Shown: piece after piece, positions 4,283-62,109 of the stretch
Numbering within the stretch: position 1 is the first letter of the stretch
Layout of the letters: the number at the start of each line of letters is the position of its first letter
From: Psammoneis japonica
Taxonomy: Eukaryota
Direction of reading: 5' to 3'
DNA length: 64,000 bases
NCBI GenBank assembly: GCA_008632985.1
Contig: QPGO01000047.1
Span: forward strand, 124,001-188,000
Program-made: the position numbers and the translations under genes
Notes under the pieces: generated by a model
The model's input: the letters and a program-made list of their open reading frames with translations, nothing else
Databases searched by the model: none
Told to the model about the DNA's origin: nothing

Positions 4283-6269
4283 GGTCCAGTACATCCATCT
4301 ATAAATTGGCATGACGGACAGCTTGTTAGACTCCATGCTCATAGCAGGTACTTATTTTCACGTCATCTGTTTCAATTTCTGCGATTGAGTGAAACAAAGA
4401 CGCACAGATGAGCGATGGAGTGAAGCAAGACTGATCGATTCGTGCAAGGGAAACAAAGGCGTACGAAAAAGCAATGGAGTGAAAGCAAAAATGAGCGACA
4501 ATGTCAATTTTGCGCCAAGCGTTCTGACGCAATCGAGTGAAGCAAGAATGATCGATTCGGGTATCGACTGGCCTAACGATATCATTATTACTGGCTTCTA
4601 TAGACTTGTTGGTTGAGCACAAGTGATAACAATCTGAAACTTCTGGTGAGGCTCCGTCTCATTAAAGTGACGGGACCTACAATTGCGAGTGGAAAACAAT
4701 GTTGTTCAAGTTCTTTGACGAAATAAAGAAAATGGCTAGCACGGACTTGAGTAACCCCATCGGGATTACTACGCTCGCCTGTGCTGTTTGGTCGAGGCAC
4801 GGCGATACATGTGACTAAATTGGAAATCGTCGCTCCTGGCCGAAATGAGAAAAGATGAATATACGCAAGGGCTGAAGCCAAGAAGGAAAGCGAGAGACTG
4901 CGACGCAAGTGGTCGACCAGGTGCTTTCACAATGTGGTGGAAGATTTCTGACCTAGAGTGCATCCAGGGGCGCGGACGGCGTCTTTGCTTATGAAAATGT
5001 CGGATTTCGAAAGGCGTTATACAAGTAGCGTTCTCATGTGCTTCGCGATAAAAGAAAGCTGCTCCAAGTTGTGGCATGTCGAAACTGGCAGGTACGTTTC
5101 AATTCCGGATGTCATTTGTTGTCACGAGAATATACCGAGACGATTCTAGAACAAATTATTCCAGTCTTGTAGCGAGCTGCTATCCCGTTGATATTGCTCA
5201 CTCAAACTGTGCCACTGACGAAACGCGTCTCTTCCCCTCGGAACAGGGAGAACACAGGCAAATCATGGTTGCACCGGTGCAGAGTGCTTTCTTGGACTAG
5301 ATGTCAGAAGACGTGTGCTGCCGTTTGTTAACAGAAGACCTACATGATGCCTCTCCAGTCGAGGAGGAGCTACTACTGCAGCTGCAGTCTTTGTACTCGA
5401 ATCTCGAATCCCTTCGTTTTGCGGCCTGCAACGCCCTTCAACGCAGCTTGGAGAGCAAGAGAAGGAACGGCAAATGTTGCCTGAAGCTGAAAAGATTGCA
5501 GTGCTGTTGGATTTGTTTGGCACGACGATCATATTGGCATCGCACAAAGAAGCAGAAATAGACCAACAACACGACAAGGCTTCAATTTCGACGAGACATG
5601 CGAATCCCGAGGCCAAAGATGCGCGCTAGTAGCTGCAAAATCAAAATGCTGCCATGAAGAGTATTCCCATGCGATGCTAGAAGCTTTTCTTCGTTATGGA
5701 GATTGTGACGCCAAGGTAAATCTTATGTGCAACTTGATTGTGGATTCATTCTACTTCTTCTCAATGTCCTGTTCGCACACAGATTGGTTTTTCCATGGTG
5801 TGCCTCAGACCGGTTTGTGCACTGTTGGGAGTGCCGCCAAAGGGTGTTTGGTAGAGAAAAATGTCTCCTACCCATGACGATTGATGGTGCCTTGCGAGAC
5901 GACATGGTTGCTCTTGAAACTGGTCTTGCCTACGTTCTTCCTTACAGCGAAGTTGCTGGACGACACAATCTCGGGAGGCATCATGTCTCAAACAAGCGTG
6001 GGGCACACAAATGAAAGCTTGGTTATTATGTGTCATCCTGTCGATAGTTTGTCCATACAGCCACGATAAAAGCAGTGCCGGGCCTTGAATCGGCGTCACC
6101 ATTCGTTTGGGACTCGTGTCGGAGGAAAAGTTCTCGCAGCACCAGCCACAGCAGGTCTACGGCAACACAATCCACAATGTCAAGATGAGTTTTTGCACGC
6201 TCAAAACAAAAACATAATATGAATTATAGACCCAATGCATTGGCTGATTTGTCTTTTTTTAGTTTATAG

Positions 6270-6930
6270 ATGGTGGGCTTCCGAAACGGCATCGGCTTGC
6301 ACATTCCTGATGCGAGCCTGAAATGTCGATTTCTCTTCCGATGGCGTTGAAGCAACAGAACCAATTTCCGAAGCGGCTTCCGTCTTATCTGAACACGTTC
6401 ACATGTGACTTGAGGGCCTGAATTTTTTCTCTTCCACTCATCCAGACAAACAGTCTCAACTGCATTCCATGAGAGTGGGCTTCTGAATCGGCATCGGCTT
6501 GCACGTTTCTGATGCGAGTTTCTCTTCCGCTGGTGTTGAAGCAACATAACCGGCTTCTCCAAAGTGGCTTCCATTTCATCTGAACACGTTCACATGTCAC
6601 TTGCGGGCCTGAATTCTGTCTCTTCCACCTGTTCAGACAAACAGTCTCAACTGCATTCCACGAGAGTGGGCTTCTGAACTGGCACCTGCTTGCACGTTTC
6701 TGATGCCAGCCTTGATTTCTCTTTTGCCAGTGTCAAACAACAAAACCAACTTCTGAAGCAACTCATTCCACCTCAGGCCTGAAATTGATCTCTTTCTCTT
6801 CCGTCCATCTTGAGAAACAGTCTTGACCACATTCCATGAGAGTGGGCTTCTGAAAAGCATCGGCTCAAATGTTCTCTTCCGCTGGTGTTGAAGCAACACA
6901 ACCAACACTTCCAAAGTGGCTTCCAACTCA
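6270..6930. repeat. Degenerate tandem repeat, about 180-200 bp unit, about 4 copies
   Basis: Motif gtgggcttc(c/t)gaa..ggca.c.gct recurs near 6273, 6475, 6666 and 6842. Confidence 0.8.
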
Positions 6931-7599
6931 TTGTCTCTTTGACCCATCTTGAAAAACAGTCTCTTGACTTCTTCCAAACAACTGGCACAAAACTGCAATG
7001 CTGTCAATGTGCAAGAAAGCAAAAGTGCAATGAGTGGATGAACAAATGCCACATGGAAAGAGAAAAAGCAACAACACCATCATTTCAACAACACACACTC
7101 ACCCTGCATTGCTTTGTTGCTGGCAAGTTGGCTGGCCAATTGCACCAAAAACACCCAAACAATGACAAATTGAGGATTGGCTCCTGTCATCATCACCAGA
7201 ACCACCAGCACATTAAGTCTTCTGAGTTGCTTTGTGCAAAAAAGACACTGTGTGAGATGATGCAAGCATGGGTGATGGACAAAATCATTTGGTCCAAAGG
7301 TGTGAGCTGTTTAGACTCTGCTCCACAGTGGAGCATGCACAAAACCTTTTTTTTTAACCCACCTTTGTTCACAGACCATTCCACCACCAAGAAGACAAAA
7401 TGTCACCATGTTGTGGACACAATGAGGAGAGTTAAATCTTCCAATGCCACAGATTGCCAGATGTTGCTGTGAATTGGCTGCGCCCAACACCAGAAGATTT
7501 GATTGTTTGTTGTCCAAATGATGTCAAGCCAAAGAGACAACACACTGGCCCCACCAACAATGATGATGCAATGCCAAACCAACATGAACAAGCACAAAC

Positions 7600-8090
7600 A
7601 GAAAGAAACAGAATGAGTGTGTGCATTTTTGTGTTTTTTTACACAGCAATTGCAATGACACACTCACACCTTTTTTGCAATGCTGCTGCTCTTTGTTCTT
7701 TCAGAATCCAAAGAGAAAATGACCCATTGCCATCCAGAAGAGCTGTGGTGTCCTTTGGGAGCAGTTGAAAAAAGCAAGAAAAGAAACAGAATGAGTGCGC
7801 ATTCACACATTTTGCACAGCAATTCCAACAACACACTTTCCCTTTTTCACCCCACCAATGATGCTGCTCTTTGTTCTTCCAAAGCTTCAAAGAGAAAAAA
7901 AAGCATCACCGTCTGCACAAGCTGTTGTGTCCTTTTGTGGCAAAGGCAGAAAAGAAACAGAATGAATGATCATTCATGTGTTTCACACATCAACTCTGAT
8001 GACATGCTCATGCCTTTTTTCCCAAGAACACTGCTGCTCTTCATTCTTCCAAAGTTTCAAAGAGAAACAAAGCCATCAACTTGGAGACCC
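7600..8090. repeat. Degenerate tandem repeat, about 175 bp unit, 3 copies
   Basis: aaagaaacagaatga...tgctgctct...caaagagaaa starts near 7602, 7780 and 7951. Confidence 0.8.
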
Positions 8091-9884
8091 CAAACTGCAA
8101 ATGATGCTGCAGCTGATGGAGTGAGCTGCAAGAACCTGCTGGAGCATCTCCATGTCTCCCATGAATGACGCCATTCCATGTCAAGTGAGTGACTTCTGTT
8201 TTCGAGTTGAGCTCATAAAACCATTCCATTTTCATCAGTCATCCAACTGCGCACTTTGTTGGATCAACAGAGACAGCATCATCAATCACCAATGCTGCAA
8301 CATCACAAGCAGAGATGATCTGCAAAACAATGTGGATGCCAGCAAGAGATGTGGACACAGAAACATGCAACAGCCTCAAAGTGACACTTGCCGAGTGAAT
8401 CATGTTCTCTCACAATTGCTCTGCACATGTTGCTTGCACCTTGTGCCACTTTTGGTTCATTGCCACTTTTGGCTTGCTCAAAAAAATGAATGAGTGATGC
8501 AGTGATGAGCAATGAGCAAGATTTGGATTGTCAGCTTTGCTTGGCGCCTGTGGTGCTGCACACGCAGAAACCATGACCCTGTGACAACAAAGGAGCAACA
8601 AGTGTCTTCATCACCACAGGTGGCGCAAATCCAATCAAAGTTCAGGTTGGGTTTCCTTGGTGAGAGGATCTCAAATCCAGCCCCAAATGGATTTGCACCA
8701 CCTTCGGTCTCATGAAGTTAAATGCGTGAACACCCATCTCCAAGAGTGTCACATTTGGTGCAACCAACTGGCCAACCCGCCCACTGAGCACAGTCTGTTG
8801 AGCTCATGGTCAAGAGAGAAGCACAAGCAATGCTTGCTTGTGCTTGACATGTTCAAGTCAACAGCCAAATTATGAGCGAACCGAAGGCAGCACTGATTTG
8901 AGCATCGGCAGATTGCCTCTCAGTGCCTGAAAGGTTTTTTGGGTGTGCAGTTGTGAAGAGCCTGCAAAGAATGGAAGGGAACAGCAGAAGGAGGCACAGC
9001 AGCAGCTGCAGTGATGGTGGAATAGAATGGAGTAAATGCAGTGGATGTGCGGTGTTTGGTTCAAGGGACAGGGAACGTAGGAGCAGGAAAAGTTGAGGCG
9101 AATCGAAGGGCATGCACAGAAAGATGGAGGAGGACTGCATTGCAGCTGAGAGCCTGAAGAGCCCATTGGGATGGAGAGGCAGTGTGGAAGGTGCTGCCAA
9201 AGTGGTCAGAGGACAGGCAACACCATGCAGAATCAGCCAATGGAAGGAGAGCAGACAGAGAGGACAAGGCGTGGAGAAAGGCGGAGTGGGAAGGGTCAGA
9301 GTGCCGAAAGTCAGAGGGAGAGGACCAAGGGGGCTTGGGTTGAGACCGGACGGATGTGAATGTAGAGCCAAAGAGGAGGCAATGAGCAAAGAAGCCAAGA
9401 CCACCGAGGTGATCAACGGTGAAAGGGAGAAGGAAGACGCCGTCATTGTTGAGCGAAGAAACAACAAGGGAGCCATCAGCAGAGGAGGGGAAGGGCCAAG
9501 AAACTTCCCGAACACAGATTTATGTTTATATTTAGTTTTTCAATTTTATTTATTCAATGCATTCATGATAACGGATTCTTGCTATCAGGAAATACAATTA
9601 GCAACGGAAACAAAAATGAATAGAGTAGTCAACACTGTAGGTTATTGTCTTCCGTTTGGAAATTTCGAATTCTGACAGCTGACATAGTGGTCGAGATTTT
9701 CAGCGTTACGGCGTGCATTATTTGGCCATGACCCATGACCATGTGCAGCGCACAGCTCAAGCAACAAGCAAACGGGGCTTTCGGCTTTTCGTGCACGGCA
9801 TACTGTTACTTTCTCTGAGTCATCCCCCCTGAGACGCGCCAGTACTGTATACAGTACGTACATACTTGACGGTCCATCACAAGA

Positions 9885-19760: not shown

Positions 19761-20921
19761 TCGCTGCGCGGACCTGCCAAGACATGTGGCCAAAGAGCTG
19801 CAGACACGTTGTCGCGACGCAGCAAGTGTCTTCCTGCACTATTCATGTGAACGTAGCAATCCATTTCATCTTGCGTCTCCTCGTCAACCGTCGGCATCCA
19901 CACCTGGTCAGCAGAATACGCAGCTTCTCCAATGTCCTTGGGTGTGGTTGTAAGCGACAAGCAGCCGTCCAGCTGGAGATAACGAAGCCTCGGCAGCTGA
20001 AGAATTTCCTTTGGAATAGACGTCAAGTGTTCACACCCAACCAGACCCAAGACACTCAACTTTGTGAGCAATCCCATCTTTGGAGGAAGCTCGAATAATT
20101 CGGAGCAATTTATAAGCTTTAACCACGTCAGATTGACAAGATTGCAAACGACGACTTGCAAGAATTCATTCAAGCCGGGGCCGTAGTTTTCAAGCATAAG
20201 ACATTGAAGCTGTGACAGCTTCCCAACTTCAATCTCGGGAGTTTCGTGAGTTTCTTGCAATCCACAAGATAGAGTTCTTCAAGTTGCTGTAACTGTCCTA
20301 TTTCAGGGGACAACTTCGTGAGAGACCGGCCAACGTGTAACCGCAGCTCCACCAAGTTTGTCAACTGCCACAATTGATCTGGCAACTCTTTGAGACTTTC
20401 GCAGTGGCGAAGGTCAAGGAGACGCAGTTGCTGCAGCTGCCCGATTCCCTTTGGCAACTCTGCAAGACTTTTGCAATGGCAAAGGTGAAGTTCTCTCAGT
20501 TGCTGCAGTTTCCTGATTTCCATTGGCAACTCTTCCCGATTCCCGCAGGCAAACTTCTGAGAGCACTGCAATTGCACAAGTTCAGCTTCTTCAAGCTTGT
20601 CAATTCGCACACTTCATTGGGCAAGACAACGATGCTCCGGCACTCAGTTAATTGCAATTCTTCAAGTCGCTGCAGCTGCTCAATTTCTCGAGGGATCCGC
20701 ACAAGATTGATGGAACTCACGGCCAAGACTTCAAGTCGACACAACAAGCCAATTTCGCACGGAAGCACAACCAAACTGGGGACAGAGCACAAATGCATTT
20801 CTCTTGCATTGATGCACTTCTCGTGCTCCAGTGAAAAAGTGTGCAACAACCGCCACTTTGGCAGTCCCGCAGCTTGTTTCATGGCAGCGAGGATCAGGTC
20901 GGAAGGGTCGTCATCGTCCAT
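19691..20921 (-). pseudogene. Leucine-rich repeat protein, frameshifted, 5' half TpA-converted
   Basis: LRR units (LPxEIGxLxxLxxLxL..C) spread over three frames, with shifts near 20535 and 20240. Diatom-type C-terminus N.AGR.LL...LWP.VL. Confidence 0.85.
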
Positions 20922-21029
20922 TGTTGTTGCTCTTGTTCCCTTGCAACCGGGCTGTGAGAGCAACGCACTGGCTCAAAGTGAGCGTGTTGACAAAAAAAAC
21001 TGTTGGTGATTTCAAATGCCATTGACGAC

Positions 21030-21435
21030 CGTGCGCCGGGCCATGACTCGTTGTGTGTGTCAAGAAAGCATTGCGCGATGCTTTTCTTGTGTTTCTTTTT
21101 GAAAAACGAGCCAGCTTGCACTGCCAGCACTTGTGCTCAAAAGACAATGTTTCGTTGTGCGGTGCAAGTGAAACCGGGCGTGCTAACTCCCAAGGGGCTG
21201 TCGTCTCTCGTCTCCACGTGTGCATTTAGAGGGCCTGCCGCAGTTGTTCTCTGCGACCTGCGCCGGGCCATGTCTCGTTGTGTGTGCAAAGAAAGCGTTG
21301 CGCAGTGCTTTTCTTGTTTTTCTTTTGAAAAGAGATCTTGCCAACACCAGCACTTACGACTGTTCAAAAGCCAATGTTTCGTTGTGCCGCACAAGTAAAA
21401 CCGGACGTGCCAACTCCAAACGGACCATCGTCTCT
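21030..21435. repeat. Direct repeat, about 228 bp unit, 2 copies, upstream of the LRR pseudogene
   Basis: tgcgccgggccatg.ctcgttgtgtgtg...aagt.aaaccgg.cgtgc.aactcc starts near 21032 and 21259. Confidence 0.85.
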
Positions 21436-32232: not shown

Positions 32233-32954
32233 GGTGATGGTGGAGATCGTTTCGTGACAAGTGACAAGTGAAAGCGTTGACACTTTATTGTGGAAGCCTA
32301 CCATACACGCATACTGTACAACGAACCTTCGTACGTATCCTGATCGTGGCTTCAAGTTGAAGAACAATGAATGACGTAATCGACTGCAATGGTACTGTAC
32401 GACGTGTGCGTTCTGTAACTATTCTCTAATGAGAGCTTTTATAACTGCAAGAAACACCATTTTTGTCACAAATAATAAATGATAAAAAGGTCTAGTAACG
32501 GCAAATTGTGTCTTCTAACTTGTGTTGCGAAAACCGGTCAACAGGGAGACGTCATTGGTGGACATCATGGCATGATGGATGGAAGTCTTCTTTCGCCGCT
32601 TCCTTTTCGGCTCCTCACTTCCCACCGCTCGCTCTCAACCCGCGCCTCCCTGGCAGTCTCCCGCTGCTCTCCACAACTCTGATGCCTCCTGCTCTGCCTT
32701 TCTTCATGCCCCCTCCTCCCCTGCGCTGACTTCACCTGCTGCTGCGGAGCCCACCTTGGCACCACCGATCGCTTTGGCAGCACACATCGCTCTGCATGCC
32801 AAGCTGCAAGCAGCACCCAGTGCCACCTCTCTTCTTGTGCCACTTGGTTCCTTCCCCTGCCCTGTCCACACACCAAATGCCCTGCTGCTCGTCGCTGTGC
32901 CCCCCTCTGTCACCCCCCCGCAGCCACCACCGCCGCTCTGAGACAGCTGCCTTG

Positions 32955-33200
32955 ACACCATTTTGCACCCTTGGCAACATTGTGCCCTTGGCCACCTTGT
33001 GCTTTCTGTTGTTTTGAACCCACAGCCACCATTTTGCACCCTTCTTAATTTTGCGACCTTTCGCATTTTGCACATTTTGAGATTTTTTGCCCTCGGTTTG
33101 TGCCCTTGGCAGTTTTGCGCCCTTTGAAATTTTTGCCCTTGGCCATTTTGGGCTCTTTGTCATTTTGTGCCATGAGCCACAATTTTGCCCCCTCTGAGTT
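32955..33200. repeat. Cluster of short ttttgc(a)ccctt(ggc) motifs
   Basis: About 8 variants of tgcccttggc / ttttgcaccc in about 250 bp. Confidence 0.65.
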
Positions 33201-33840
33201 GGCATGCTGAGTTGCACCCCAAAGTTGGCATGCCAAGTTTTCCCCCAAAGTTCGAGTTTGCCAAGGTTCGACACACCTGTGGCAAGTCGCCCACGTGTTT
33301 GCCTCCCAAGCCAGCAAATTTTGGTGGTTAAATTTGGGTTTGTGTTTTGCTTCTTTGGAAAATGTCTCATTTTCATTGAGATGAGTCGGCTTGACAACTT
33401 GTGCCATTTTGTGGGGCTGAATGAGTTGTGAAGGTGTCTGCCCACATGTCAGTCATGTGTTGTGATTGAAATCATGGGGAGTCACTTTTGGGTGTTCTTT
33501 GGCGACCATGATTGTGTTTTAGAACTTTGACTCCAAGGCTTTCAACCAATCTGACCTCAAATCCATCACTGCAGACTCCTCAAGCAAACTGTGGAGTGAC
33601 AGGATTTGAACAAAATTTCAGTTCATCACACATGATCATGTGTGCTCGCAGCTCCGCACGCAGCACATGATGCACTTTGCTTTCAAGCCACTTGGCTCAC
33701 AAGAACGACAACAACAGCTCTGACATCATGACACCAGTCTTTTGACTCCTGTGGTGGTCTCTGCATGGAGACTCATCTGCTGTTTAGACAGCAGTGAGGA
33801 GTCATTGTTTTCTTCCACCCAATCATCTTCAATTTCTGTC

Positions 33841-33930
33841 ACTTGCCAAACTCGCCAAACTTGCCAAACTCACCAAACTTGCCAAACTCATCAAACTTGA
33901 CAAACTTGGATGCCTTGCCAAACTCGAAAA
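33841..33930. repeat. 9-bp minisatellite (AAACTYRCC), about 8 copies
   Basis: acttgccaaactcgccaaacttgccaaactcaccaaacttgccaaactcatcaaacttgacaaactt. Confidence 0.9.
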
Positions 33931-33999
33931 ACTCACACCGCTGCAACAACAATCCTGGGCCAAAGCAGAAAAGTCAAGGGGGGGTCATCCCCACATTCA

Positions 34000-35230
34000 T
34001 CCCAAAATGGTGTTTGTTTCCGAATGCAAAAAATTGTTTGCATTCACACCAGATCATGCAAAAAATGAGAACCACCAGGCACTGCAGTCAAAGCATGACA
34101 ATGATGCAATCATCAATCTTTCTTGAAAACACAGCGGGGCAACCACAAACTTTTGATCCACGTGTGATCTTTGACACAAAAAAGGAGCACAGCTGGAAGA
34201 TTTGGTGTGTCAGATGTGACGCTGATGATGCCCCCAGTGTCAGAAGGTTTCTCCAGCTCGTTGACCTCTGCTTCACAATGGGCACCCTTTTCAGCTTCAC
34301 TGTCATCATGAGAGCCCCTCTTCGTCATCCAAAACTTTCTTCTGTGCCTCTTCTGGCTGGGTCTCCCACACCACAAAGCCATCAACAGAAGCTTTTTGCT
34401 TCAGAGATGCTGGGGTTTCTTCTTCTGTCTTGTTCATTGTTGCTGGCTTCATCCTTTGCTGCATCTTCAGCACCACCTGTTGCTGCTTCTGGCTCTTTTG
34501 CAGGCACTTGGTTTTCTTTGTGATTTTGCAACGGATTTTTGGTGCTGTGTTCTGGGGTTGGGGGGAAGCTGTTGTTTGGAGCATCATCCTGTTCTGCATC
34601 TTCAACACTGCCTTTCACTGCTTCTGGCTCTTTTGCAGGCACTTGGTTTTTTTGTGATTTTGCAGTGGAACTTCCGGGAATCATTGTTTGGAGCATCATC
34701 CTGCGCTGCATCTTTGACACCACCTTTTGCTGCTTCTCTGGCTCTTTTGCAGGCACTTGGTTTTCTTTGTGATTTTGCAATGGATCTTTTGGAATCTTGG
34801 CACTGTCTTCTGGGTTTGGGTGGGAGTTGTTGTCTTGGGCATGTTCAGAGTTAAAATGTGCAGCACTGACTGTGCCATGTGGGTCCATTGCTGGGTCCAT
34901 TGTGGCTGACTCTTCTTTGTCTGTGACGTGTTCAGATTGGATGTGAGAAGTGCAGACTGTGCAATTTGGGACCATCGCTTGCTCCATTTTGCCCGACTCA
35001 CCTGACCAAATGGCACTGCTTTCCATTTTGTCCTCCTGGGCAGGTTCTTCAATTTGTGGACCTTCCTGCTGGTGCCCAGCCAACAACTGATTTTTGTCAT
35101 TGTGCTCAGCGTCTGCTCTGTCTTGAGACTCACCCTTGCACTGGCACTTCTCAAACCCACCTTTGTTGACCTCTCTGCACTCACATGGCTTGTGATTGAG
35201 GAAACTTCCAGCAGATGAGTGTTGCCTCAA
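34000..35230 (-). pseudogene. Relic low-complexity acidic protein with 3 internal KENQVPAKEPE repeats
   Basis: ORF 34382-35230 repeats K(E)NQVPAKEPE. DNA motif ctggctcttttgcaggcacttggtttt occurs near 34489, 34624 and 34738. No Tyr. Confidence 0.55.
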
Positions 35231-36666
35231 TCATTCTTGCACACTCTTCCACTGATTTTTCATCCTTGTGGCATTCGTGGAAGTGGTTGCAGTCGCTGCA
35301 ACTTTTGTCATCATCAAACACACAAATTGGCGCCTGCCCCCCCCCCCCACACAATGCAGATCAACCAGAAATGCAGATCAACCAGATTGGATGGTGCTGG
35401 AAACTTGTTTTTGGCAGGGCCAGCATCTGAACTCTCAAGCTTGTCACTGGTGCTGTCATGCCTTGGAACCTGTCAGGCTGGACCCTCTCCTCTCTAACAC
35501 CATGCCTCTCATTTCCATGGCACTTGTTTTCCAGATGCTTTGTTTCTCAGAAAGAGCATCAAGGCTGCAGTGCAGAGGTGCACAACAGGGGGCAGACTTT
35601 GTGACCCTGTGTTTGGGGCAGCTCCCAATTTGCCTGCATCTTGCCGTGTCATTTTGGAGCAGGTGGAGATTGTGTCAGCCGGCCCCTGCACCAAATTCCT
35701 GATTTTTGTTCCTGTGTGTTTTGTCATCCAGCCCACAAGTGGCTGAAGCTGGCAACTCAAGCAGAGGTGCCAAGTTTGCCCCCTCTTGCTTGCGTGCATT
35801 TGTTTCATCCTAAACATGCACCAGGCAGGTGCCCCAACCTCCATGCTGTGGAGCCAAGCTGGTGCTGCGTGGTTGTTCGTGCCTCCCAACAGACAACTGG
35901 CTGGCACCCTTTGGTTTTTCTGCAACTCAGCTTTGACTGTTGAGAGGAGTGCTGCTGCCCCTGCTGTTTTTGCTTCCTTCTGTGTGTCCTCCAGCTGCTG
36001 CCTGGCCAAGTTTTTTGACATCCCTGTGGCACAACCTGCAGACTGAAGCACCGCCCACCCCGACTCGGAGAGTGCTGCATTTTGCGCGCACTTTTGAGTT
36101 TGTGAGAGGGCATCAGCCAATGCAAGCATGTCTCAGCCTGTGTTTGAGTTTGTGCTGGCACACCTTGTGCTGCATTTTCCTTCCAAAATTTCAGCATGTT
36201 TTGGCGTTTGAACAAACGCCGCCTGTGTGTGATGGTCAACACGGTGCACCACAATGCTGCTGGCACACTGCTGAAAAAGTTGCTCTGGTTGTTCTTGCTG
36301 GACCCTTGCAAGTGCAGCACGATGCCAGGCACAAAATAATGACAGATGCTGCGTGACACGAAAACAAAGAGAAGCCAGCTTTGCACAAAAAAGTCACACA
36401 CAACAAAATTGATGTGTGTCGTGAAAGCATGATGTGGCAACAAGTGATCTAAATATCCGGGTTTCTTCCCGATAGATTTATGAGAACCCCATTCGGCATG
36501 GCTGATGTGTGAGTTCGCGCGAAGAAAAGTTTAGCATACTTTCTCACAAAGTCCGTTTATTATCATGCTCATTATGAATATCTTTATAAAACGGGTTCGG
36601 ATTCACATTTTGAGAGCTCTGTCAGCAAAAATCCACATCAAAAGTGGGAGACAATGAACTTCACCC

Positions 36667-53023: not shown

Positions 53024-53254
53024 AATGTAGTAGCGAGATGGATAACGCTACGTTTTACCGGTAGTAGAGAGTGGTTCTTATACTTTTTGGTTGGTACAAG
53101 TACTTTTGGTTCGTGGACATCATGGCGTGCTTGGTGTGAATGTGCTGTTAAGAACTCCGTGGTGCTGACATGTACATTGAAATCGTAGCCTTGAAAGTCG
53201 CTCGTAGGTTTTCGTTCTCAAATAGTTACATCACACTCATGGCATTGAAGTCTC

Positions 53255-53791
53255 TTGTGGGGTGCGTCAAACAGGTCTCACGGAAAGCAAGCCCTTAGCC
53301 ACAATTCTGACAGGAAGTGGAGTGCATGTCCAGAAAAAGACATTGAAGCCTGCAATGGCGATAAGGCTGATTGCATGGCCACTGCAGATGACGCATCAAG
53401 CCAATTCAAGTGCATGATTCAGCCCACCAACTCAAGTCATTGTCGCTGCATCCAAGAAGAACGAAGCTGGACCGAAAAGATTCACATCTGTGAATGCGAG
53501 GCAAATGAGTGGCATCAGCTTGGTCATGACCTCAACAGAGAAGTTCAACCTCACCCATTCATTGAATTGTCTTGTTCCATTTTGAGTGACAGAACTCACG
53601 TGACCTTTGCCGCTGGGAACAATGGCGCACACGTCTCAAAGCTTGGGGCTGGTTGTGCATTGCCATGGGCCAATGACTGTGCAGCTCTTACAAAAAATGT
53701 GCAAGCTTGCATTTTCTGTTGCGTGTGGGTCACAGAAGCCATCACATCTGTCATGGAATTACCCACCCCAAGAGAGCTTCAGCTCATTTGA
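53255..53791 (+). pseudogene. Tyr-free relic ORF, beta-propeller/FG-GAP-like after back-conversion
   Basis: IHICECEANEWHQLGHDL reads IYIYEYEANEWYQLGYDL if TG/CA are reverted to TA. Confidence 0.45.
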
Positions 53792-54174
53792 TGCTGCTGG
53801 TTTCGCTTTTTTTTCATGTCATTTCACTCAAAACCAGATCCCTTGATCTTGTTCAATTTGCACATCTGTGAAAGAACAAGGTGGAAGAAAACAGTTCAGA
53901 TGTTGCATGTTGCACTTTGAGGATGCAGTCAATTGTTAAGGCAAGTGTGGGCATGTGTGAAGAGCAAGAGTGGGTCACTGCACAGCAGGCTGCCCACTTG
54001 AGGCATGTCAAGTTTTGTGCGACCGAGGTGTCATTTTTGCCAGTGGTGTGAAATGAAACCTCAGCAAACTCTCATTGCAGCTGTTGAAAGGATGGATGGT
54101 CAGCACATTGTTCGACAAACCTGAACCCAGCTTGCTTTGAGCATTGCTGCTCACGAAGTGTCGCGTCCATTTTC

Positions 54175-55243
54175 ATGATGACATGTGCACATTGGTGTGC
54201 ACTGCTGCCAATGGTTGCAAAGGTCATGTTTGATGCGATGGCGCAAGGTGTGTCAATTGCTGCAAAAGCAAGTCAAGACATGCTTTGCGCTGCTTTGGCT
54301 GCACCACGATTTTTGCGCCGATCGAAAGCCACGATGACTCCTTTGTCCACCTCCAGAACATCCTGCGCAACACCATGCCTGCAAGCATGCCTTTTGACCA
54401 CAAGGACTGTGACTCCACCCTTCTTCACAACGCCATTCAAAACTGCACACCTGCAGAGGACATGCCAGTTGATGCTCTGTCTGCCAGTCCTCCTTTGACT
54501 TGTCCATCGAGCATGAAATCGATTTGTCCGACCATTTTCAAAACATCCTTCGAGAGCATGCGCCCGCCGCAATGATTGCCATCCTGACGTTTTCCGACAC
54601 TTGCGAGATTTTGTCAAATTTCACTGGTGAGACCATGTCAAAGCTGCGCACTGCATTCCACGAGTTCTCTTTGAAGACCAAGACTGTTCGTGAAACCGCT
54701 TCGACCTTGCACGAGATCATCCATGACTCCTTGAAGACCTTCATCACGAAGGCACGAATTCAGGCTCACGTTTGGAAAGAATGTATGACGATGTCGTTTC
54801 AGACACCAATGTTGTCATTAGAATGTTGGTGGACAACAATTCAAGAAGCAACTGACAGCTCTGTCACACTTGTTCAAACTCAGGCCCGCACTCTGTGTGA
54901 CAAATGCGAGACGATGCCGTTTTGGACACCAAAATTGTTTTGCATCCAGAACATTGGTGGACGAGAGTTCAAAACTCGTGAAGGAGCTTTTAATCTGGGT
55001 GCGAGTGCGGGTGAGCAAGATGTCAAGAGTTGGGGACGTTCCTTGTGCCCCGATCCGAATCATGCGGTGAATTGGGCCAGTTGTTTGACGTGTGCGGCAA
55101 GAGGGGCATGGTGTGTTGTAGAGCGGGATCAGCTGTTGTGCAGTTTACATTCGGAACCTTGGCGCAAGACGATTCTGTTGAGAGTTTTCTGTTCATTGCA
55201 TTGGATGGTGGGATCTAGCTGTGCCATTGCAGAGCGCACATGA
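54175..55243 (+). pseudogene. Tyr-free relic gene, frameshifted, unknown product
   Basis: Overlapping ORFs 54285-54575 and 54500-55243 read as protein-like text with C/H at Tyr-like positions. Confidence 0.5.
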
Positions 55244-55520
55244 CAAGAGCAAGTGTCCAAATAGTCTCCCTGCTTTCATTTCGTCCGCTTCGTCAAAAAT
55301 GCCAAAGGAAATGCTGCCTCCATCGCTTGAAGAGCCTCTCCAACCGGTGGAAGCGAGATTTAAGTGCAGCTGTGCCAGTGCAGAGCACATGCAACAAGAA
55401 CAAGTGTCCAAATAGTCTCCCTGCTTTCATTTTGTCCGCTTCGTCAAAAAAGCCAAAGGAAATGCTGCCTCCATCGCTCAAAGAGCCTCTCCAACCGGTG
55501 GAAGCGAGATTTAAGTGCAG
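55220..55520. repeat. Near-identical 150-bp tandem duplication
   Basis: caagtgtccaaatagtctccctgctttcattt...gcgagatttaagtgcagc occurs twice, 150 bp apart. Confidence 0.92.
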
Positions 55521-56447
55521 CCAATGAAACGCAGCTTCACCGGCATTGCGAATCACCGCATCAGGTTTTTCCTTTGGAACGCTCGGCACGCGACCAATTG
55601 TTTTGAGAGAATTGGCAATCTGGTGCTGCTCGCAGACACTTTCCAAGCAGTGGTGCATTTCGGAAACAGCATCGTCAAACAAGATCACTGGCAAGGAGGT
55701 GCAAGCATCCTCCAGTGGTGTGGATCGTGCGCCCGCACACACAATGTGAATTCGAAACTCCGTGCAAGGCCTTTGAACCATCAATCTTGAAGGCACCAAA
55801 ACTTTAAGGTCTGACAATGTTGTGGAAGAAGGGGAAGTGAGAAGTGAAAATCGAGAACGGATGGTCACGGTGCGAGCTTGCGATGAATGAATTTGTTGTT
55901 CCTCACCTTGCTGTCAACAACAAGCTGCGGCAGACGGGATTCATTCAAGGCGGGCAGCATTGGAGAAAGCTTCACGCCTTTCTATGCGGCGATCACTGAC
56001 ACTGCCATTTCTAGCGTCGGCTCTTGTCCTTCCAACACAGCTGCCCCGACTCGGTGCTTGACTTGCTTGTCATCAAAGGTTCCCTCAAAGTTTGACAACG
56101 TGCGCGAAATTTCGGAGACTGTCAACCGTGTGCCATTTCTCCTCGTCGTCGCAGGAGAGAAGACTCAACTTCTTGGTGCTGTCGCACTTGGCTGCCGTTG
56201 CAGGAAACCATGACTGCAGCACATGGATTGAGACCTGTGCTTGTCGTCATCAACTGGCCCGATTGCTTCCATGTTACTGCCGGCCGACAACGAGAAGGAC
56301 TCTTCAACTTCATCCGAAAAGTCAGTCAAACGAGTCTTTTGAAGCACAAAAGGGAATGAGAGACAATTGGAGTGTGCCCTTTCTGCCCCATTCCTGGCTT
56401 GTGCCTCGTGCCGCACCCCGTCTGTTGTCACGAGATTGTCTCGAGAT

Positions 56448-56537
56448 CGTGTCCCGCGCATCACCGTCCCACGTCCCGCGTCTCACCGTCCCACGTCCCA
56501 CGTCCCGCATCCCGGCGCGTCCCGTGTCCCACGTCCA
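56448..56537. repeat. GTCCCRC short-motif array
   Basis: About 8 copies of (c)gtcccac / gtcccgc upstream of ORF 56689. Confidence 0.8.
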
Positions 56538-56688
56538 AAAGAAATTTGTAAATTCCAAAAGCCTGGGTCGTGCCAGCGTGTGTGCTTGTCTGTGTCACCA
56601 AAATGCAAGCACGACATTGCACGGCACAGCAACGGACGACAAAAACCGACAAAACCTGTTCGCAGCTTTGACCTGCTGCTGAATCACC

Positions 56689-58017
56689 ATGTCGTCATCT
56701 GCCACTGATCCCTCGAACACTCCTGAGCGTCTCGTCAAGAAAGGTGTCCAAAAGAAAATGAAGCCATCCGGTCCTCTGTTTTCCGCTGACATGCTTTCTC
56801 CGGTCGGCAAGAAACGAAAGACTTTGCAGTCTCAGGCGTCGGCAAAGAAACGCCGTCCTGATGGAGCTGTTGCTGCTGCCCAAATGCCCCAATTCGAAGC
56901 TCGTCTTGATGAAATCGAAGAAAAGAATGGATGCCAAAAGGAAATCACGACGATCGTCAAGTCCTGTGACAAGATGCTCGGCCCGGTCGATCGAGCCTGC
57001 AAGCATCTCAAATCAAAACTCGAAAAGGCAGCCAATCACCATGATTCTGTGAAACAAGCTAGAGATGAGGCGAATCGAAAGTTTGATGAAATCGGACGTG
57101 ACATGGATGAAGTCGATGCGAAGATCAAGTCTCCATTGAGTGAAGTCGAAAACCTGCGCGCTCAGAAGAAAGAAATGACCAGCATGCGCGAAGCTGTCAC
57201 GTCGGTGGCTTTGAACCTTGCCACCACAGTCAAGGCCGAGAACGCCGTGTCTTCTCCATCCACACAACTTGAGGAAGCGAAGAAGAACAAAGAGCTTCTT
57301 GAGAAGGAACTTGAACCCTGTCAGCATCTTCTCAGACAACATCGTGTCATTTGGAGGGATTGGTCTGGTGAGCAAATGTTTGAAAACTTGGAAATGGAGT
57401 TTTCACGCAATTTTCTAGAAAATCTGGACAAGGAGAGGCTTCTGATCATCAAGAAGGCTGTGAAGATTTTTGGCTTCCCGCCAGCAAGACACTTCAATGT
57501 GAGGAACAAACCAAAAACGGGTGTGATCGACGACATTTGCACTGCAGCAGACATGCCTCTCCCAGAGTTGGCATTTGATCCTGAAGCCATCCAGAAGGCA
57601 GTGCGAGAAGGACGCGCCAACTGGGATGCATTCAAGCAAAAGGTTGCGATGGCGGATGCAGCGCACGCTGCGAAGGACTGCGAGCACATGGATGGCATTT
57701 CTGATGAAGAAGAGCATGGTGAAGAGGATGCTCAGACAACAGGGGGCAACATTTCGAAAACATCTGGAAGACGAAAGAGCATTTGGAAAACCAATGGATC
57801 AAACCACTCTGGAGCAACACTTGTCTTAATCTTGCTCTGTCAAACATCGGCACAGCAGGAGCAGGGCCCTGCGTCTGGACAGGTGGCACCTGCACGACAA
57901 GGACGTGCTTCCTGCAATCCCGGGAGCGCTGCAGCCGACGCAGCTGTTCGAGAAAAATGCGTCAACGGCAAACCGGGTGCAGCAAGCAAGATGTTGTGCG
58001 ATTCCTTGCTGGCTTGA
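56689..58017 (+). pseudogene. 442-aa coiled-coil, NLS-bearing ORF with no tyrosine; hypermutated gene
   Basis: KKRK and KKRR motifs, heptad region, no Tyr, and GCQ, KSCD, RACKHL, KDCEHMD, EEHGE at Tyr-like positions. Confidence 0.6.
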
Positions 58018-58959
58018 GGCAGATCCAAATTCGTCTAAAACAGAAAGATGAAAAACTGCGAACTGGCGGCTGTGCCCTCCAACTCAATTCCAGCAACCAC
58101 CCAACTGGCTCGTCAATCAAATGGTCACTCTGGGTGACTGAGTCGTCACCGACAAATGCACAGACAAAGGCAAAGAGTCGACAGGCAAGGTGCCAGCGAG
58201 GAATGAACTGCGAATCAATCTCGCTTGCAGGTTTGAAGCGACTCCATCTGCAAAGAAGCTCAGTCAAGAATGAAATTTTCCTGACAAGGCCTTCAACCAA
58301 CAGCGCAGGAATTGACACATTCAGACGGGCAACTGCAGATCGTTCTGAGCGTTGAACCAGTCGCTGCACTCATTGCATCTGCGAATCACTGGTGCCAGCA
58401 AGGGCCAGAGCAGCAAGCTTCCCATCAGCAAAACGCTTGCCTGCATCCTGCGTGCAACTGCAAGTGCGCTTCAATTGCAATGAGCAGCAAGAGAAGCTTC
58501 AGCAAACAGAGTGCGAGAACAATGCATTGAAAATGAGAAGGAGACACTTGACGAATGAAACAAAACAGGCGACTCACCTCGACACGTGCTCATTCCCCCA
58601 ATGACGTCTCGAACTTCTGGCCCAAGCGTCACTGCCATTCTTTTCTTCATTCCATCCATGTTACATTGAATCGCTTGTTGCTTTGCCGTAAGCGATTGGA
58701 AGTCTACAAAGGCGGTGCTCGAAAGCAAGTCACCGGATGCTGAACCTGTGAGATGCTCCCAACCCAGCTTTCTTGCTAAAGTGGGCTGCTTCTTTTTCGG
58801 GATCTTTCGCCGTTGATCTTGTGTCAAACGAACGCATTCAGCATCAATGCCAGGTATGTTGATTCAACTCTTGAGTCATGCTGCGCAAGGACAAGAGAGA
58901 AAGCAGGAATTTTTGGTGCCAAGTCTCATCGGCGACAGGGCAATGTTCAAAGAAGTCAC

Positions 58960-60175
58960 TCACTCGCAGTGATGCTGGAGTGCCGGATATGTCCTTGCGT
59001 CTTTAACAGCACTGCTCAGAGGGACAGAGTCAAACAATTTATTGTGCATGTCTTCACGCGATTCTCTTTGAGCAAGAACAGCAGTCGGCTCCTTAGGTTC
59101 GTTGAGATGCTTAGTGACAAGTGTTCCGCCCTTGGCGCACTCGTCTAGACAGCTCAAATGTTCTGCGAGTTTGTGGACTTTCTTTGCGTAAACGTGTTCA
59201 CATGCGACAATGTGCTTCATTCGAGTCTGAACTAGCTTTCTCAAGTGTTCGTGGTTCAGTGGCACTTCTGCATGCTTGATCTGGTCGGAAAAATGTTGTC
59301 AAAGAAAGAGTGCAGAGCCTTTGTCGTGCCTCTGTGCCGTCAGAACACACTCCACAAGTGCTGTCTCACGGCACTGTCTCTTGTGTTTTTCTTCGAGAAA
59401 GTATCCGTTCTCAAGGAAATCGCACCGTAGCGGAAGAAAGAGCTCCCAGTCCGTCCACAGTCTTCTCAGAATTTACAGAAACTGTGGGTAAAGCAAAGCC
59501 ATAACAACCCAGAACCTCCAGCTTCCATTTTCGACCGCAATGACAGTCGTGCTGTAGAAACCGACAGAAGCTAAACCATTCCCTGAGAAGCCAGATAGGG
59601 AGCGAAATGAATGTGGGCCAGAGAGAGAGATGTGGAAGCCAAACAGAAGAAACCGTAGTGTCTTGAAATTGTCTAGCCCGACATGTCGCAAGAGCTCGTG
59701 GTCTTCGTCTGACAATGGCCGTCGTCCCATGTCTTCAGAAAGACAGTTCTTTGGTTCACCGGCACAGGACGTGGATCCTTGTCTTGGATCAGTTGTGCCC
59801 GTCTCCATGTGCGGTGTGAACTTGAGCAAACCAGAGAGAGTGCGCTGACCGCATGCTGCGAGAATCGCAGCTTCGCAAGCCTGCTGGCCCCTTCTGTGCC
59901 CATGATTATATCGCCATCACTGCTTCGAGGCGTTTGAACTGGAAAACTCATTCGATTCTTGAATCTAATTCGTCGGGAAGTGCTCCCAGGAAGGGATCAT
60001 CGTTCCATTTTCTGGTCTGGTTCTGTGCAAATCGACGCTGCTCTTGTTCCTTTCGATCTTCCTCCCCGCAAAGTTCACGGCACTCTGCATCTGATTTTTT
60101 CTCTTTAAGTGCGTTTTCAAGTTCGTTTGCAATGCCCGGCGTGCAAGAGCGTGAAATGAAACATTGGCAATTCAT
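58960..60175 (-). pseudogene. Fragmented, partly converted relic gene
   Basis: Protein-like minus-strand fragments (SDAECRELCGEEDRKEQE, LRKLVQTRMKHIVACEHVY) in different frames. Confidence 0.4.
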
Positions 60176-60306
60176 CCTCTGTTGAAAACAACTGTGGCAA
60201 GTAATAACGGCAGTGTTGCGTTTGGCAGTCCCTAGATTTCGACCGGATGGAAGGGTATAAAATCATGGTAGAGAACTTGCTGCAGTCGATCTGCTCCACA
60301 AGCTTG

Positions 60307-62109
60307 TCATGACATTGCTGCTGGTGACACAACTTCCTCCCAGAGTGTGTTTCGTGGCAATTCGTGTTTCAATGCCAAAGCAAGCGCGTCCTTCATCATG
60401 GGTCCATCATTTACAACGGCGTCCTTTCCGTGGCGCTTGTATAGCTCCATGTATGACTGGAGACCTTTGGTGGTCAGGTCTTGATCGATTTCAGGATCAA
60501 ACAGCACCGGAGAAAAGTTGAACACAATCAACCAGACCTTGTCGTCGACATCCATCATCAAATCGGCAGAAAAGATCTCAAACTGCGGTTTGCACATGGA
60601 AGTATCAGTTTGCCTCCGAGCACAGAGCTTGCCTTGCTCAATGGCTCTCGACACAACGCTCGCGAGGACTGCTTGGCATTTCTCCAAGGACCAACCCTTC
60701 ACCTCATGTTTACGCGATAGTCGTAGTCGCTCGTGACGCTGAATCGTGACTTGAGTTTCTGGCAAAAGATCAAGCGGACTCCACGAATTGGGTGAAATCG
60801 ACAAGTAGGCATCACGGTTGGTATAGAGCTTCCATTCCCCGCTCGACTCCTGGAGCAAAAGACTGTAAAACTTTAAATGACACTTTTGGCCGTTTCCGAC
60901 AAGGCGGGGGTTCAAAACGTGCTGTTGAATGATGTGTGTAATCGATGCTTTTCTGATGCTTGGTGATTGACTCGTGGCTGCTGCAGCTCGGCATTCCGAC
61001 AGGGTAGAGAAGCATTCTACAGCACGGCCGCCATTCTTGTCACACTCCTTCAAAAAGAAAGGACCGTTCGTCTCATTGTCCGATGTGTCCTCTGTCACGA
61101 GTTGGCTTTCAACAATGCTGCCATGTTCATTTAGAAACCATGTCGGTGGCATGGCATCATATGCAAGGCTGTGCACCTTTTCCTTTTCGTCGAGCCATTC
61201 TCTTCCCTTGATGAACGTGGATACTTTGCTAAACTGCGGTTCGTCGCACAGGTCTATGACACGCTTACCCAGCGGGCAATAGTACTGCCTTTCATGCGAC
61301 GAAATCATGGATGCGCTATTGTACCATTCCTGCTGTGGGTACTCGTACCAGTCTTCTTGCATCAGCAAACGTTTCATATAGAGTGGCCCATGTCCGCCCC
61401 GCCCCACACTGCAGCAGAACTTGACGCTCTTGTCACTGCCATTCTCGTTGTAGAAATAGTTTTCAAGCCCTACCGCAGAATCAATCATTTCTTCCATGGA
61501 AATGACGGACGCATACAGGGGAATGACGTGCTGCATGACCGCGTATAAACGATCTTCGTTGTCGTCTTGGATACACTCTTGCACGACCGACACTTGTTGG
61601 ATACTGCTCACATCGCACAGCATTTGACACGTGATTTGAATCGAAAACGAGGCCTTTATTCCCACTAGAGTAACATGAGTAACGTTCTCTTGTTCCAAAG
61701 CCGCCAGAATTTTCTGCATGGGCGGCATATGTCCTTGCCTCCAAATCGTAACCGCGTTGCTCGCGTCAACAATCAAGCTTGATTCTACTTCCGACGACGC
61801 GCTGCCTGTTGTAAACCATGACACTGACTTTGTCTTTTCGTATAATCGTTTCAAACCTCCATAGATCTTATGATTGGAGTCAATTCCCCCATAACCGGCG
61901 GGGAACTGCAAGCCAGTGTATATGATTGTCCAGTGGGCAGCGTGAGCTACTTGAACGCACGTCCGAACCAGTTCCAACAGAGCTTGCCGCTTTCCTTCTG
62001 GCGTTATAGACTGTAGCATGTCAGGTTGCATATCACATATGATCAAAGCATCCTTTCTTGAAGAGAACGGTAGGGTATCCATGGTTGCTAGTTTGCAGCG
62101 GCCATCCAA
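60307..62109 (-). CDS. Isochorismatase-like domain fused to tubulin-tyrosine-ligase-like ATP-grasp domain
   Basis: N-terminal ALIICDMQ...VTHVTLVG. C-terminal FFLK.....GR, IIQQHV.NP.L, K.HLK.Y, FEIFSADLMMD...VWLI.FN.SP. Confidence 0.75.
   Translation of the reverse strand: MDGRCKLATMDTLPFSSRKDALIICDMQPDMLQSITPEGKRQALLELVRTCVQVAHAAHWTIIYTGLQFPAGYGGIDSNHKIYGGLKRLYEKTKSVSWFTTGSASSEVESSLIVDASNAVTIWRQGHMPPMQKILAALEQENVTHVTLVGIKASFSIQITCQMLCDVSSIQQVSVVQECIQDDNEDRLYAVMQHVIPLYASVISMEEMIDSAVGLENYFYNENGSDKSVKFCCSVGRGGHGPLYMKRLLMQEDWYEYPQQEWYNSASMISSHERQYYCPLGKRVIDLCDEPQFSKVSTFIKGREWLDEKEKVHSLAYDAMPPTWFLNEHGSIVESQLVTEDTSDNETNGPFFLKECDKNGGRAVECFSTLSECRAAAATSQSPSIRKASITHIIQQHVLNPRLVGNGQKCHLKFYSLLLQESSGEWKLYTNRDAYLSISPNSWSPLDLLPETQVTIQRHERLRLSRKHEVKGWSLEKCQAVLASVVSRAIEQGKLCARRQTDTSMCKPQFEIFSADLMMDVDDKVWLIVFNFSPVLFDPEIDQDLTTKGLQSYMELYKRHGKDAVVNDGPMMKDALALALKHELPRNTLWEEVVSPAAMS

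What the first reader, a model, noticed from the sequence alone, without database searches (positions are those of the whole stretch)
53232..60200. TpA loss is uncoupled from CpG loss, and blocks appear to be at different stages
Seen: blocks 1 and 3 have lost both TA and most CG. Blocks 2 and 4 lost TA but keep many CG (e.g. 56400-57300). Block 4 also keeps some VTAB sites (gtat 54783, gtag 55118, ctag 55216, 57059, 57415) and fades after about 58600. Known: diatoms methylate CpG in repeats through DNMT5. Inference: TpA conversion is fast and comes first, and CpG deamination accumulates later.
Basis: partly seen in the sequence, partly recalled or inferred. Interest (0 to 1): 0.7.

Follow-up and report, generated by a model that had tools for sequence, protein, structure and literature searches.

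The report
TpA editing outruns diatom CpG decay
In this diatom's silent DNA, TA steps are rewritten to TG or CA quickly and over a wider zone than the slower loss of CG steps, so the two look like separate mutation processes; the flagged block keeps its CG partly because it is made of old host-gene copies that escaped CG decay, not simply because it is young.

Summary
Observation confirmed. Blocks 2 and 4 have TpA o/e 0.05-0.08 with CpG 0.76; blocks 1 and 3 have CpG 0.30 (background 0.58 and 0.96). Over 464 kb the plot is L-shaped: TpA-low windows span all CpG levels, and CpG-low windows with normal TpA are nearly absent. The losses are nested, not independent.

'TpA first' holds. The youngest LTR pair differs at 13 TpA, 3 CpG and 0 other sites. 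In one Copia family CpG loss tracks neutral divergence (rho -0.80) and TpA loss does not.

'Stage = age' fails in block 4. CpG conversion falls from 56% at the left to 14% at the right. The right part is an old OSCA/TMEM63 pseudogene with strong TpA conversion and no CpG excess. Block rims keep CpG in 18 of 22 blocks. Surviving TpA follows context (loss: TAT > TAC > TAG > TAA).

Best reading: a fast TpA-specific A-to-G editor acting on a domain wider than the CpG-methylated core, plus clock-like 5mCpG decay. The closest known case is TpA hypermutation in Bigelowiella natans (2026 preprint, no mention of CpG). This scan has already reported the phenomenon, and the uncoupling, on other pieces of this genome.

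The parts
53228..58987 (.). Block 4, TpA-erased core (TpA o/e 0.08, CpG 0.76); a mosaic of low-copy duplicated sequence
53440..54170 (.). Copy of a stretch found TA-intact twice on the same contig; one of these overlaps the 3' end of an ORF with an FG-GAP hit. Most CpG-depleted part of block 4: TpA 19 of 22 and CpG 19 of 34 converted
54222..55217 (.). Copy of a dispersed family ('family A', 12 copies aligned, 5 TA-intact with CpG o/e 1.2; no Pfam match). Against L044: TpA 25 of 34 converted (6 kept), CpG 28 of 71 converted (reverse 9 of 49)
55217..55518 (.). 151-bp tandem duplicate; the copies differ at 3 TG/CA sites, 2 CpG sites and 3 other sites, so conversion came after duplication
55630..56227 (-). 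Fragment of a peptidase M16 gene (TA-intact copy on C37); TpA 17 of 20, CpG 10 of 34 converted (reverse 7 of 32)
56451..56536 (.).
56683..58017 (+). 444-codon open frame with no tyrosine; no Pfam or atlas hit; CpG o/e 1.03 in 56561-57300. Three CpG transitions separate it from a sequencing-run contig (56637, 56816, 57071)
58046..59989 (-). Old frameshifted pseudogene copy of an OSCA/TMEM63 (RSN1_TM, PHM7_cyt, RSN1_7TM) gene whose intact paralogue is on C244. Ancestral TpA 27 of 40 converted, ancestral CpG 6 of 51 (intact copy 4 of 51). This is the 'fade' zone
60211..61200 (-). 3' end of the flanking isochorismatase-TTL gene; against its 96% paralogue 4 of 26 TpA are converted here and 0 of 47 further in (weak leakage)
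20339..21354 (.). Block 2: TpA o/e 0.05, CpG 0.76; copy of a low-copy LRR gene family; TpA 14 of 24, CpG 14 of 51 converted (reverse 8 of 43)
6268..9520 (.). Block 1: TpA 0.06, CpG 0.31; holds high-copy dispersed repeats (154 candidates)
32517..36449 (.). Block 3: TpA 0.03, CpG 0.30; holds the LTR end (33515-33841) of a Copia family (RVT_2; 1131 candidates) used here as the clock

Best explanation
Two separate mutational processes act on the same silent domains. (1) A TpA-specific, strand-symmetric A-to-G (= T-to-C) process converts most TpA soon after a stretch comes under it; its speed depends on the next base (TAT > TAC > TAG > TAA). It reaches further than CpG decay: block rims, duplicated host genes and slightly into flanking genes. 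The most likely chemistry is adenine deamination on DNA by a TadA/ADAT-type enzyme (inferred, about 45%). (2) CpG decays to TpG/CpA more slowly and in proportion to time, as expected from deamination of 5mC laid by DNMT5 on transposon cores (inferred from the literature). A TA-low/CG-high stretch therefore has two origins: a young element caught early, or an old duplicate in the outer zone that was unmethylated or only lately silenced. The right half of block 4 is the second kind. Shown: spectrum, context, rate order, the clock in one family, the rim effect and the age of the pseudogene. Inferred: enzymes, methylation state and defence function.
For: Spectrum: TA of intact copies goes to TG or CA, about none to CG. 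Rate order: youngest LTR pair 13 TpA, 3 CpG, 0 other differences; a 1.66-kb duplicate 36 of 64 TpA against 9 of 102 CpG. Clock: 35 Copia segments, CpG kept against other divergence rho -0.59 (p 2e-4), TpA rho -0.15 (p 0.40); 14 long TA-erased copies, CpG -0.80 (transversions only -0.58, p 0.03), TpA -0.10, TpA against CpG 0.17. Copy L024: 0.58% divergence, TpA 0.18 kept, CpG 0.73 kept, as in TA-retaining copies. Space: CpG higher in the outer 600 bp than in the core in 18 of 22 blocks (p 0.005) with TpA equal (p 0.24). Old pseudogene: C>T at CpG 6 of 123 against 20 of 495 elsewhere (p 0.62), A>G after T 36 of 119 against 29 of 619 (p 1e-14). Context: one additive per-strand term for the 3' base fits 10 tetramer classes, R2 0.98. 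A C5-methylase hit and a SNF2 hit lie 3.6 kb apart on one strand of C76, the DNMT5 layout.
Against: In the LTR-only alignment (44 copies, about 185 sites) TpA kept also fell with divergence (rho -0.48), as did CpG (-0.45); in the 19 long copies TpA gave -0.41 (p 0.085). The Copia copies were picked by likeness to a depleted copy, out of 1131 candidates, and some are not independent. Some older copies keep TpA (0.54-0.79) while CpG is at 0.42-0.53 (L020, L030, L031), so TpA is not always first. Block 4 itself is one of the 4 of 22 blocks without CG-rich rims. Block edges are defined by TA, which can inflate rim CpG a little. Family A shows no clear clock. Non-TpA A>G is 2.7-fold raised in erased copies (p 0.03), so the process is not perfectly TpA-specific. 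No methylation data and no enzyme were identified.
Confidence: 0.62

Rival explanations
1. Pure age staging: both processes start together everywhere in a block, and blocks differ only in age.
For: L-shaped plot; CpG clock in the Copia family; youngest LTR pair; four CpG transitions among five differences between the window and run contigs at 55492-57111, suggesting CpG decay is under way there (p 0.02 against flank).
Against: The CpG-keeping pseudogene carries 3.2% transversions, more than any of 35 Copia segments (max 1.75%), yet has no CpG excess. There is a CpG gradient inside block 4 (trend p 5e-7) and a rim effect. It survives only if 'age' means time since local silencing, which sequence cannot date.
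Confidence: 0.16
2. One coupled process: T:G mismatches from 5mC deamination start long repair patches filled by an error-prone polymerase (Pol eta-like, A>G at WA; recalled), so TpA loss is a by-product that spreads past the methylated core.
For: Nesting: CpG loss rarely occurs without TpA loss; TpA zone wider than CpG zone; A>G after A is raised on the pseudogene branch (14 of 230 against 2 of 230) and in erased Copia copies.
Against: A>G after T is 30% against 6% after A, with a 4% baseline, and C[A] is raised as much as A[A] in Copia copies. A 2-kb pseudogene is converted with no CpG loss of its own. In B. natans the TpA rate was 6.9e-7 against 3.9e-9 for GC>AT (Mettrop et al.).
Confidence: 0.13
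3. The lesion is on T, not A: a modified or oxidised thymine in R-T-A context mispairs with G in silent chromatin.
For: The context reads equally well as 5'-purine-T-A; sequence cannot tell which base is hit.
Against: No positive evidence; I ran no search for thymine-modifying enzymes. The only published case proposes adenine deamination.
Confidence: 0.07
4. Composition or assembly artefact: the CG-rich blocks descend from TA-poor sources, or the pattern comes from sequencing error.
For: Family A's source is CpG-rich (o/e 1.2) and a tandem array inflates one example.
Against: TA-intact homologues exist for most of blocks 2 and 4, and outgroups polarise the loss to the window copy (27 of 40 against 1 of 40). 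Contigs of a public run match the block almost letter for letter (0 differences in 2291, 4 in 1047), though that run may be the assembly's own sample.
Confidence: 0.02

Closest known systems
TpA hypermutation of integrated viral DNA in Bigelowiella natans (Mettrop et al., bioRxiv 10.64898/2026.01.13.699255; parts 1-4 of 5 read)
   Same: TpA to TpG/CpA on both strands, confined to regions, leaving TpA-poor and TpG/CpA-rich clusters; transposon domains among the targets; uneven activity.
   Different: Here a diatom; targets are transposons and duplicated host genes; conversion is near saturation over 191 of 464 kb sampled; it overlaps CpG decay; a 3'-base preference is measured. The preprint's main text has no 'CpG' and no 'diatom'.
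DNMT5-dependent CG methylation of transposons in Phaeodactylum tricornutum (PMC9998398; passages only)
   Same: [quoted passage not shown]
   Different: The passages seen concern methylation and expression; 'deamination' does not occur in the main text. They do not explain TpA loss.
Repeat-induced point mutation (RIP) of ascomycete fungi (recalled; search listings only)
   Same: Dinucleotide-specific transitions in repeated DNA, with leakage into neighbours.
   Different: RIP is C>T and creates TpA; this removes TpA. In these data the intact paralogues are not hit.

Membership tests
B. natans-type TpA hypermutation | Changes are TpA to TpG or CpA, on both strands | tested here: met
   TA>TG 16 and TA>CA 7 against L044; 34 and 24 against L114; polarised 27 of 40
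B. natans-type TpA hypermutation | Confined to regions, genes spared | tested here: met
B. natans-type TpA hypermutation | Target is integrated viral or other foreign DNA | tested here: not met
   Identified pieces of blocks 2 and 4 are host-type genes (OSCA, peptidase M16, LRR); block 3 holds a Copia end. The preprint allows transposons as further targets.
B. natans-type TpA hypermutation | No raised GC>AT rate in the targeted region | tested here: inconclusive
   Met in the pseudogene 58046-59989; not met in transposon cores, where CpG also decays
B. natans-type TpA hypermutation | De novo rate near 6e-7 per site per generation, in a subset of lines | not testable with these tools
   Needs mutation-accumulation lines
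B. natans-type TpA hypermutation | ADAT2-like candidate deaminase | tested here: inconclusive
   9 PF00383 matches and 4 PF02137 matches in G000; not read or compared; such genes are general
DNMT5-type 5mCpG decay | CpG to TpG/CpA in transposons, growing with time | tested here: met
DNMT5-type 5mCpG decay | Gene with C5-methylase plus SNF2 domains | tested here: inconclusive
   G000:C76:292881-293144 (+, E 1e-4) and C76:296748-297380 (+); locus not fetched
DNMT5-type 5mCpG decay | 5mC present at these CpG | not testable with these tools
   No bisulfite or nanopore signal
Fungal RIP | C>T at CpA, raising TpA | tested here: not met
   TpA falls and CpA/TpG rises; [C]A>T not raised in erased copies
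Fungal RIP | Homology-triggered, premeiotic, RID-dependent | not testable with these tools
   Recalled features
Pol eta-type WA mutagenesis | A>G at AA of the same order as at TA (recalled) | tested here: not met
   36 of 119 at T[A] against 14 of 230 at A[A], 7 of 176 at C[A] and 8 of 213 at G[A]

The most novel reading that the evidence does not exclude
Diatoms have a DNA adenine editor that marks surplus DNA, including old duplicates of ordinary host genes, independently of 5mC and ahead of it, with CpG methylation following on the edited core. This would be an editing-first, methylation-second silencing pathway of opposite chemistry to fungal RIP, shared with a rhizarian alga.
Probability: 0.25. 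Interest if true: 0.87.

Novelty: new variant of a known kind. Interest (0 to 1): 0.64.

Why it matters
The one published TpA hypermutation case I found leaves open what targets it and how it relates to DNA methylation. Here the two signatures separate in time (fast against clock-like) and in space (wider against core), and a 2-kb old pseudogene is TpA-edited without CpG decay. That makes a sharp test possible in diatoms, where DNMT5 knockouts exist (PMC9998398). It also means transposon ages and pseudogene dN/dS in such genomes are wrong unless TpA and CpG sites are masked, and that loss of TAA, TAG and tyrosine codons can leave long misleading open frames.

Tried and rejected
1. TpA-type differences between the window and run contigs at 59987-60676 looked like allelic editing at the rim (8 of 16 listed rows). 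Rejected: five of the listed letters (60258, 60326, 60524, 60643, 60676) match the paralogue at C49:230-233 kb, and 60096-60196 is multi-copy.
2. CpG-type differences in the core (4 of 5 in two fully listed records) are kept only as a weak hint: p 0.02 against flank, p 0.13 with the pseudogene record included; 2 of the 3 flank transitions are also CpG; 40 of 108 rows were shown; the run may be the assembly's own sample; 54817 was dropped as multi-copy.
3. No RNA holder was listed; run X2 has no cover over 55340-57340; neither is used as evidence.
4. 'VTAB' as the target rule: replaced by a graded 3'-base rule; CTAG is a slow context.
5. The 444-codon frame: no Pfam match, no atlas hit.
6. Family A as a clock: too few TA columns and transversions.
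7. A reverse class at window level: of 282 repeat-targeted windows, 44 have TpA >=0.45; 4 of these have CpG <0.6 and none <0.4. It is at most a minority class with both half lost.
8. Block length against CpG: rho -0.18, p 0.23.
9. Literature: six searches listed no paper on TpA loss in diatom repeats or on its order relative to CpG loss; the library lacks most subscription journals. The bioRxiv supplements were not seen, and Fig. S8 of Mettrop et al. plots TpA against other dinucleotides, so it may bear on CpG.
10. A larger LTR-pair set was planned; only 11 repeat pairs were obtained.
Full report
Setting. The window is G000:C49:124001-188000 in a 91.4-Mb assembly of 597 contigs. 24 silicon-transporter matches, the best at E 2e-208, point to a diatom (inference). 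Block 4 lies between a CRAL-TRIO gene and an isochorismatase-TTL gene.

Observation. Segmentation on TA gives four blocks with TpA o/e 0.03-0.08 against 0.58 outside. CpG o/e is 0.31 and 0.30 in blocks 1 and 3, 0.76 in blocks 2 and 4, and 0.96 outside. Block 4 has 29 TA where 233 are expected. The CpG contrast between the two pairs has p 2e-23. The named sites and the fade after 58600 are there; one coordinate is off by one.

I scored 457 1-kb windows over 464 kb of C49, the window plus 40 fetched stretches. Of 157 windows with TpA o/e below 0.2, 44 have CpG at 0.6 or more and 11 at 0.8 or more, so the TA-low/CG-high class exists. Of 232 windows with TpA at 0.45 or more, 1 has CpG below 0.6. 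Spearman rho is 0.71 overall and 0.50 among 146 TA-low windows. The losses are nested: CpG decay happens almost only inside TpA-erased DNA. In 282 windows from repeat-targeted loci elsewhere, 4 of 44 TA-normal windows have CpG below 0.6 and none below 0.4.

What block 4 is made of. Searches of the genome returned few candidates for blocks 2 and 4 (9, 26, 15 and 9) and many for blocks 1 and 3 (154 and 1131); these counts are lower bounds. The identifiable pieces of block 4 are host-type genes: a peptidase M16 fragment and an OSCA/TMEM63 gene; block 2 is an LRR gene copy. Block 3 carries the end of a Copia element. Against the nearest TA-intact homologue, from left to right, TpA conversion is 19 of 22, 25 of 34, 17 of 20, 6 of 8, 11 of 13 and 55 of 90. 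CpG conversion is 19 of 34, 28 of 71, 10 of 34, 3 of 10, 3 of 16 and 13 of 92, with reverse counts of 0 of 11, 9 of 49, 7 of 32, 5 of 16, 0 of 14 and 9 of 89. The CpG trend has p 5e-7 by site and 0.017 over the six segments. An o/e of 0.8 can hide real loss: the intact copies of family A have 1.2.

Order and clock. Of 11 repeat pairs scored, the LTR pair in L092 has 13 TpA, 3 CpG and no other differences; a 1.66-kb duplicate has 36, 9 and 30; the more diverged LTR pairs share 1-2 TpA and mostly differ at 4-10 CpG. In 35 segments of the Copia family (hits of 500 bp or more and 82% or more among the loci held), CpG kept falls with divergence at other sites (rho -0.59) and TpA kept does not (-0.15, p 0.40). 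Among 14 long TA-erased copies the values are -0.80 (transversions alone -0.58) and -0.10. Against this: the LTR-only set of 44 copies gave -0.48 for TpA and -0.45 for CpG, the 19 long copies gave -0.41 for TpA (p 0.085), the copies were picked by likeness to a depleted copy, and three older copies keep 54-79% of TpA columns with CpG at 42-53%. So TpA loss is usually fast and largely independent of age, CpG loss is clock-like, and the ratio varies between loci.

Why age alone fails in block 4. With two outgroup paralogues, the pseudogene at 58046-59989 has 57 non-synonymous and 15 synonymous changes outside TA/CG sites on its own branch, against 4 and 18 on the intact branch, so it has long been unconstrained. 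It has 44 transversions in 1356 sites (3.2%), above the 1.75% maximum of the Copia segments (the two counts use different site filters). Yet C>T at CpG is 6 of 123, no more than 20 of 495 at other C, while A>G after T is 36 of 119. Family A in the window has 0 private transversions in 294 sites and has lost about half of its CpG columns. Across 22 blocks of 3 kb or more, CpG is higher in the outer 600 bp than in the core in 18 (p 0.005) while TpA is level; block 4 is one of the four exceptions. Either TpA editing covers a wider zone than methylation, or it reached these parts recently. Sequence alone cannot separate the two. A weak hint for the second comes from 55492-57111, where 4 of 5 differences from run contigs are CpG transitions.

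Context. TpA density inside against outside blocks is TTAA 0.51, CTAA 0.27, CTAG 0.18, GTAA 0.12, CTAC 0.11, ATAA 0.085, ATAG 0.045, GTAC 0.02, ATAC 0.014 and ATAT 0.009. One term per strand for the base after TA (T 2.33, C 1.86, G 0.79, A 0.32) fits with R2 0.98 (four terms on ten points, and 5' and 3' effects are not separable from survival alone). The direction of change in Copia columns mostly agrees, with milder ratios. That TadA's natural target is U-A-C is recalled, not from a call, and is only a lead. Non-TpA A>G is 34 of 6900 in erased copies against 5 of 2749 (p 0.03).

Mechanism. I commit to two processes: a TpA-specific A-to-G editor on silent DNA, most likely a TadA/ADAT-type deaminase, and slower deamination of DNMT5-type 5mCpG in cores. 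The genome has deaminase-family genes and a possible DNMT5 layout on C76; neither was examined further. The rivals are pure age staging, error-prone repair started from 5mC mismatches, and a thymine lesion.

Comparison and novelty. Mettrop et al. (bioRxiv 10.64898/2026.01.13.699255; parts 1-4 of 5 read, supplements not seen) measured TpA-only A>G/T>C mutation in integrated viral DNA of B. natans and proposed an ADAT2 homologue; the main text has no 'CpG' or 'diatom'. PMC9998398 (passages only) shows DNMT5-dependent CG methylation of diatom transposons. Six searches listed nothing on this in diatoms. Earlier notes of this scan describe the same phenomenon and the same uncoupling on other pieces of this genome; they gave me the preprint and the rim idea and are not independent support. 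A word search for the clock, pseudogene and rim terms together found none. This works like the B. natans process and is best filed as a new variant of it, not a proven member: the target class differs and the rate and enzyme are untested.

Noticed in passing
window 53440-59989: Block 4 strings together pieces of at least four unrelated loci (C49 321-325 kb, family A, peptidase M16 on C37, OSCA region on C244), like a gene-fragment capture array. Intact family-A copies end near GGATCTAG/CTAC, which recalls a Helitron 3' end (recalled motif, not tested).
   Followed up: partly
window 60211-62941 and G000:C49:230387-233118: The isochorismatase-TTL gene region is duplicated, inverted, at 96% identity; the window copy shows a few TpA and CpG conversions near block 4.
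   Followed up: partly
window 56683-58017: 444-codon frame with no tyrosine; the first 350 codons look like a real coiled-coil protein but have no Pfam or atlas match.
   Followed up: partly
L183, L184, L185 (C312, C356, C171): Repeat-dense stretches where TpA (mostly 0.2-0.6) and CpG (mostly 0.4-0.7) are both about half lost; TpA editing seems slower in these domains.
   Followed up: partly
L092:1106-8387 (G000:C49:259-266 kb): Element with 286-bp direct terminal repeats that differ only at TpA (13) and CpG (3) sites; a good single-locus model of the early stage.
   Followed up: partly
G000:C76:292881-297380: C5-methylase hit followed by a SNF2 hit on the same strand: DNMT5 candidate.
   Followed up: no
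G000:C297, C301, C10, C28: 27 C5-methylase matches in the genome, several clustered or broken; a possible methyltransferase expansion.
   Followed up: no
G000:C38:226311-230342: One 1511-aa frame holds three silicon-transporter domains in tandem.
   Followed up: no
C49 blocks, 191 kb: CpG survival also has a mild context: GCGC 0.75 down to ACGT 0.34.
   Followed up: no
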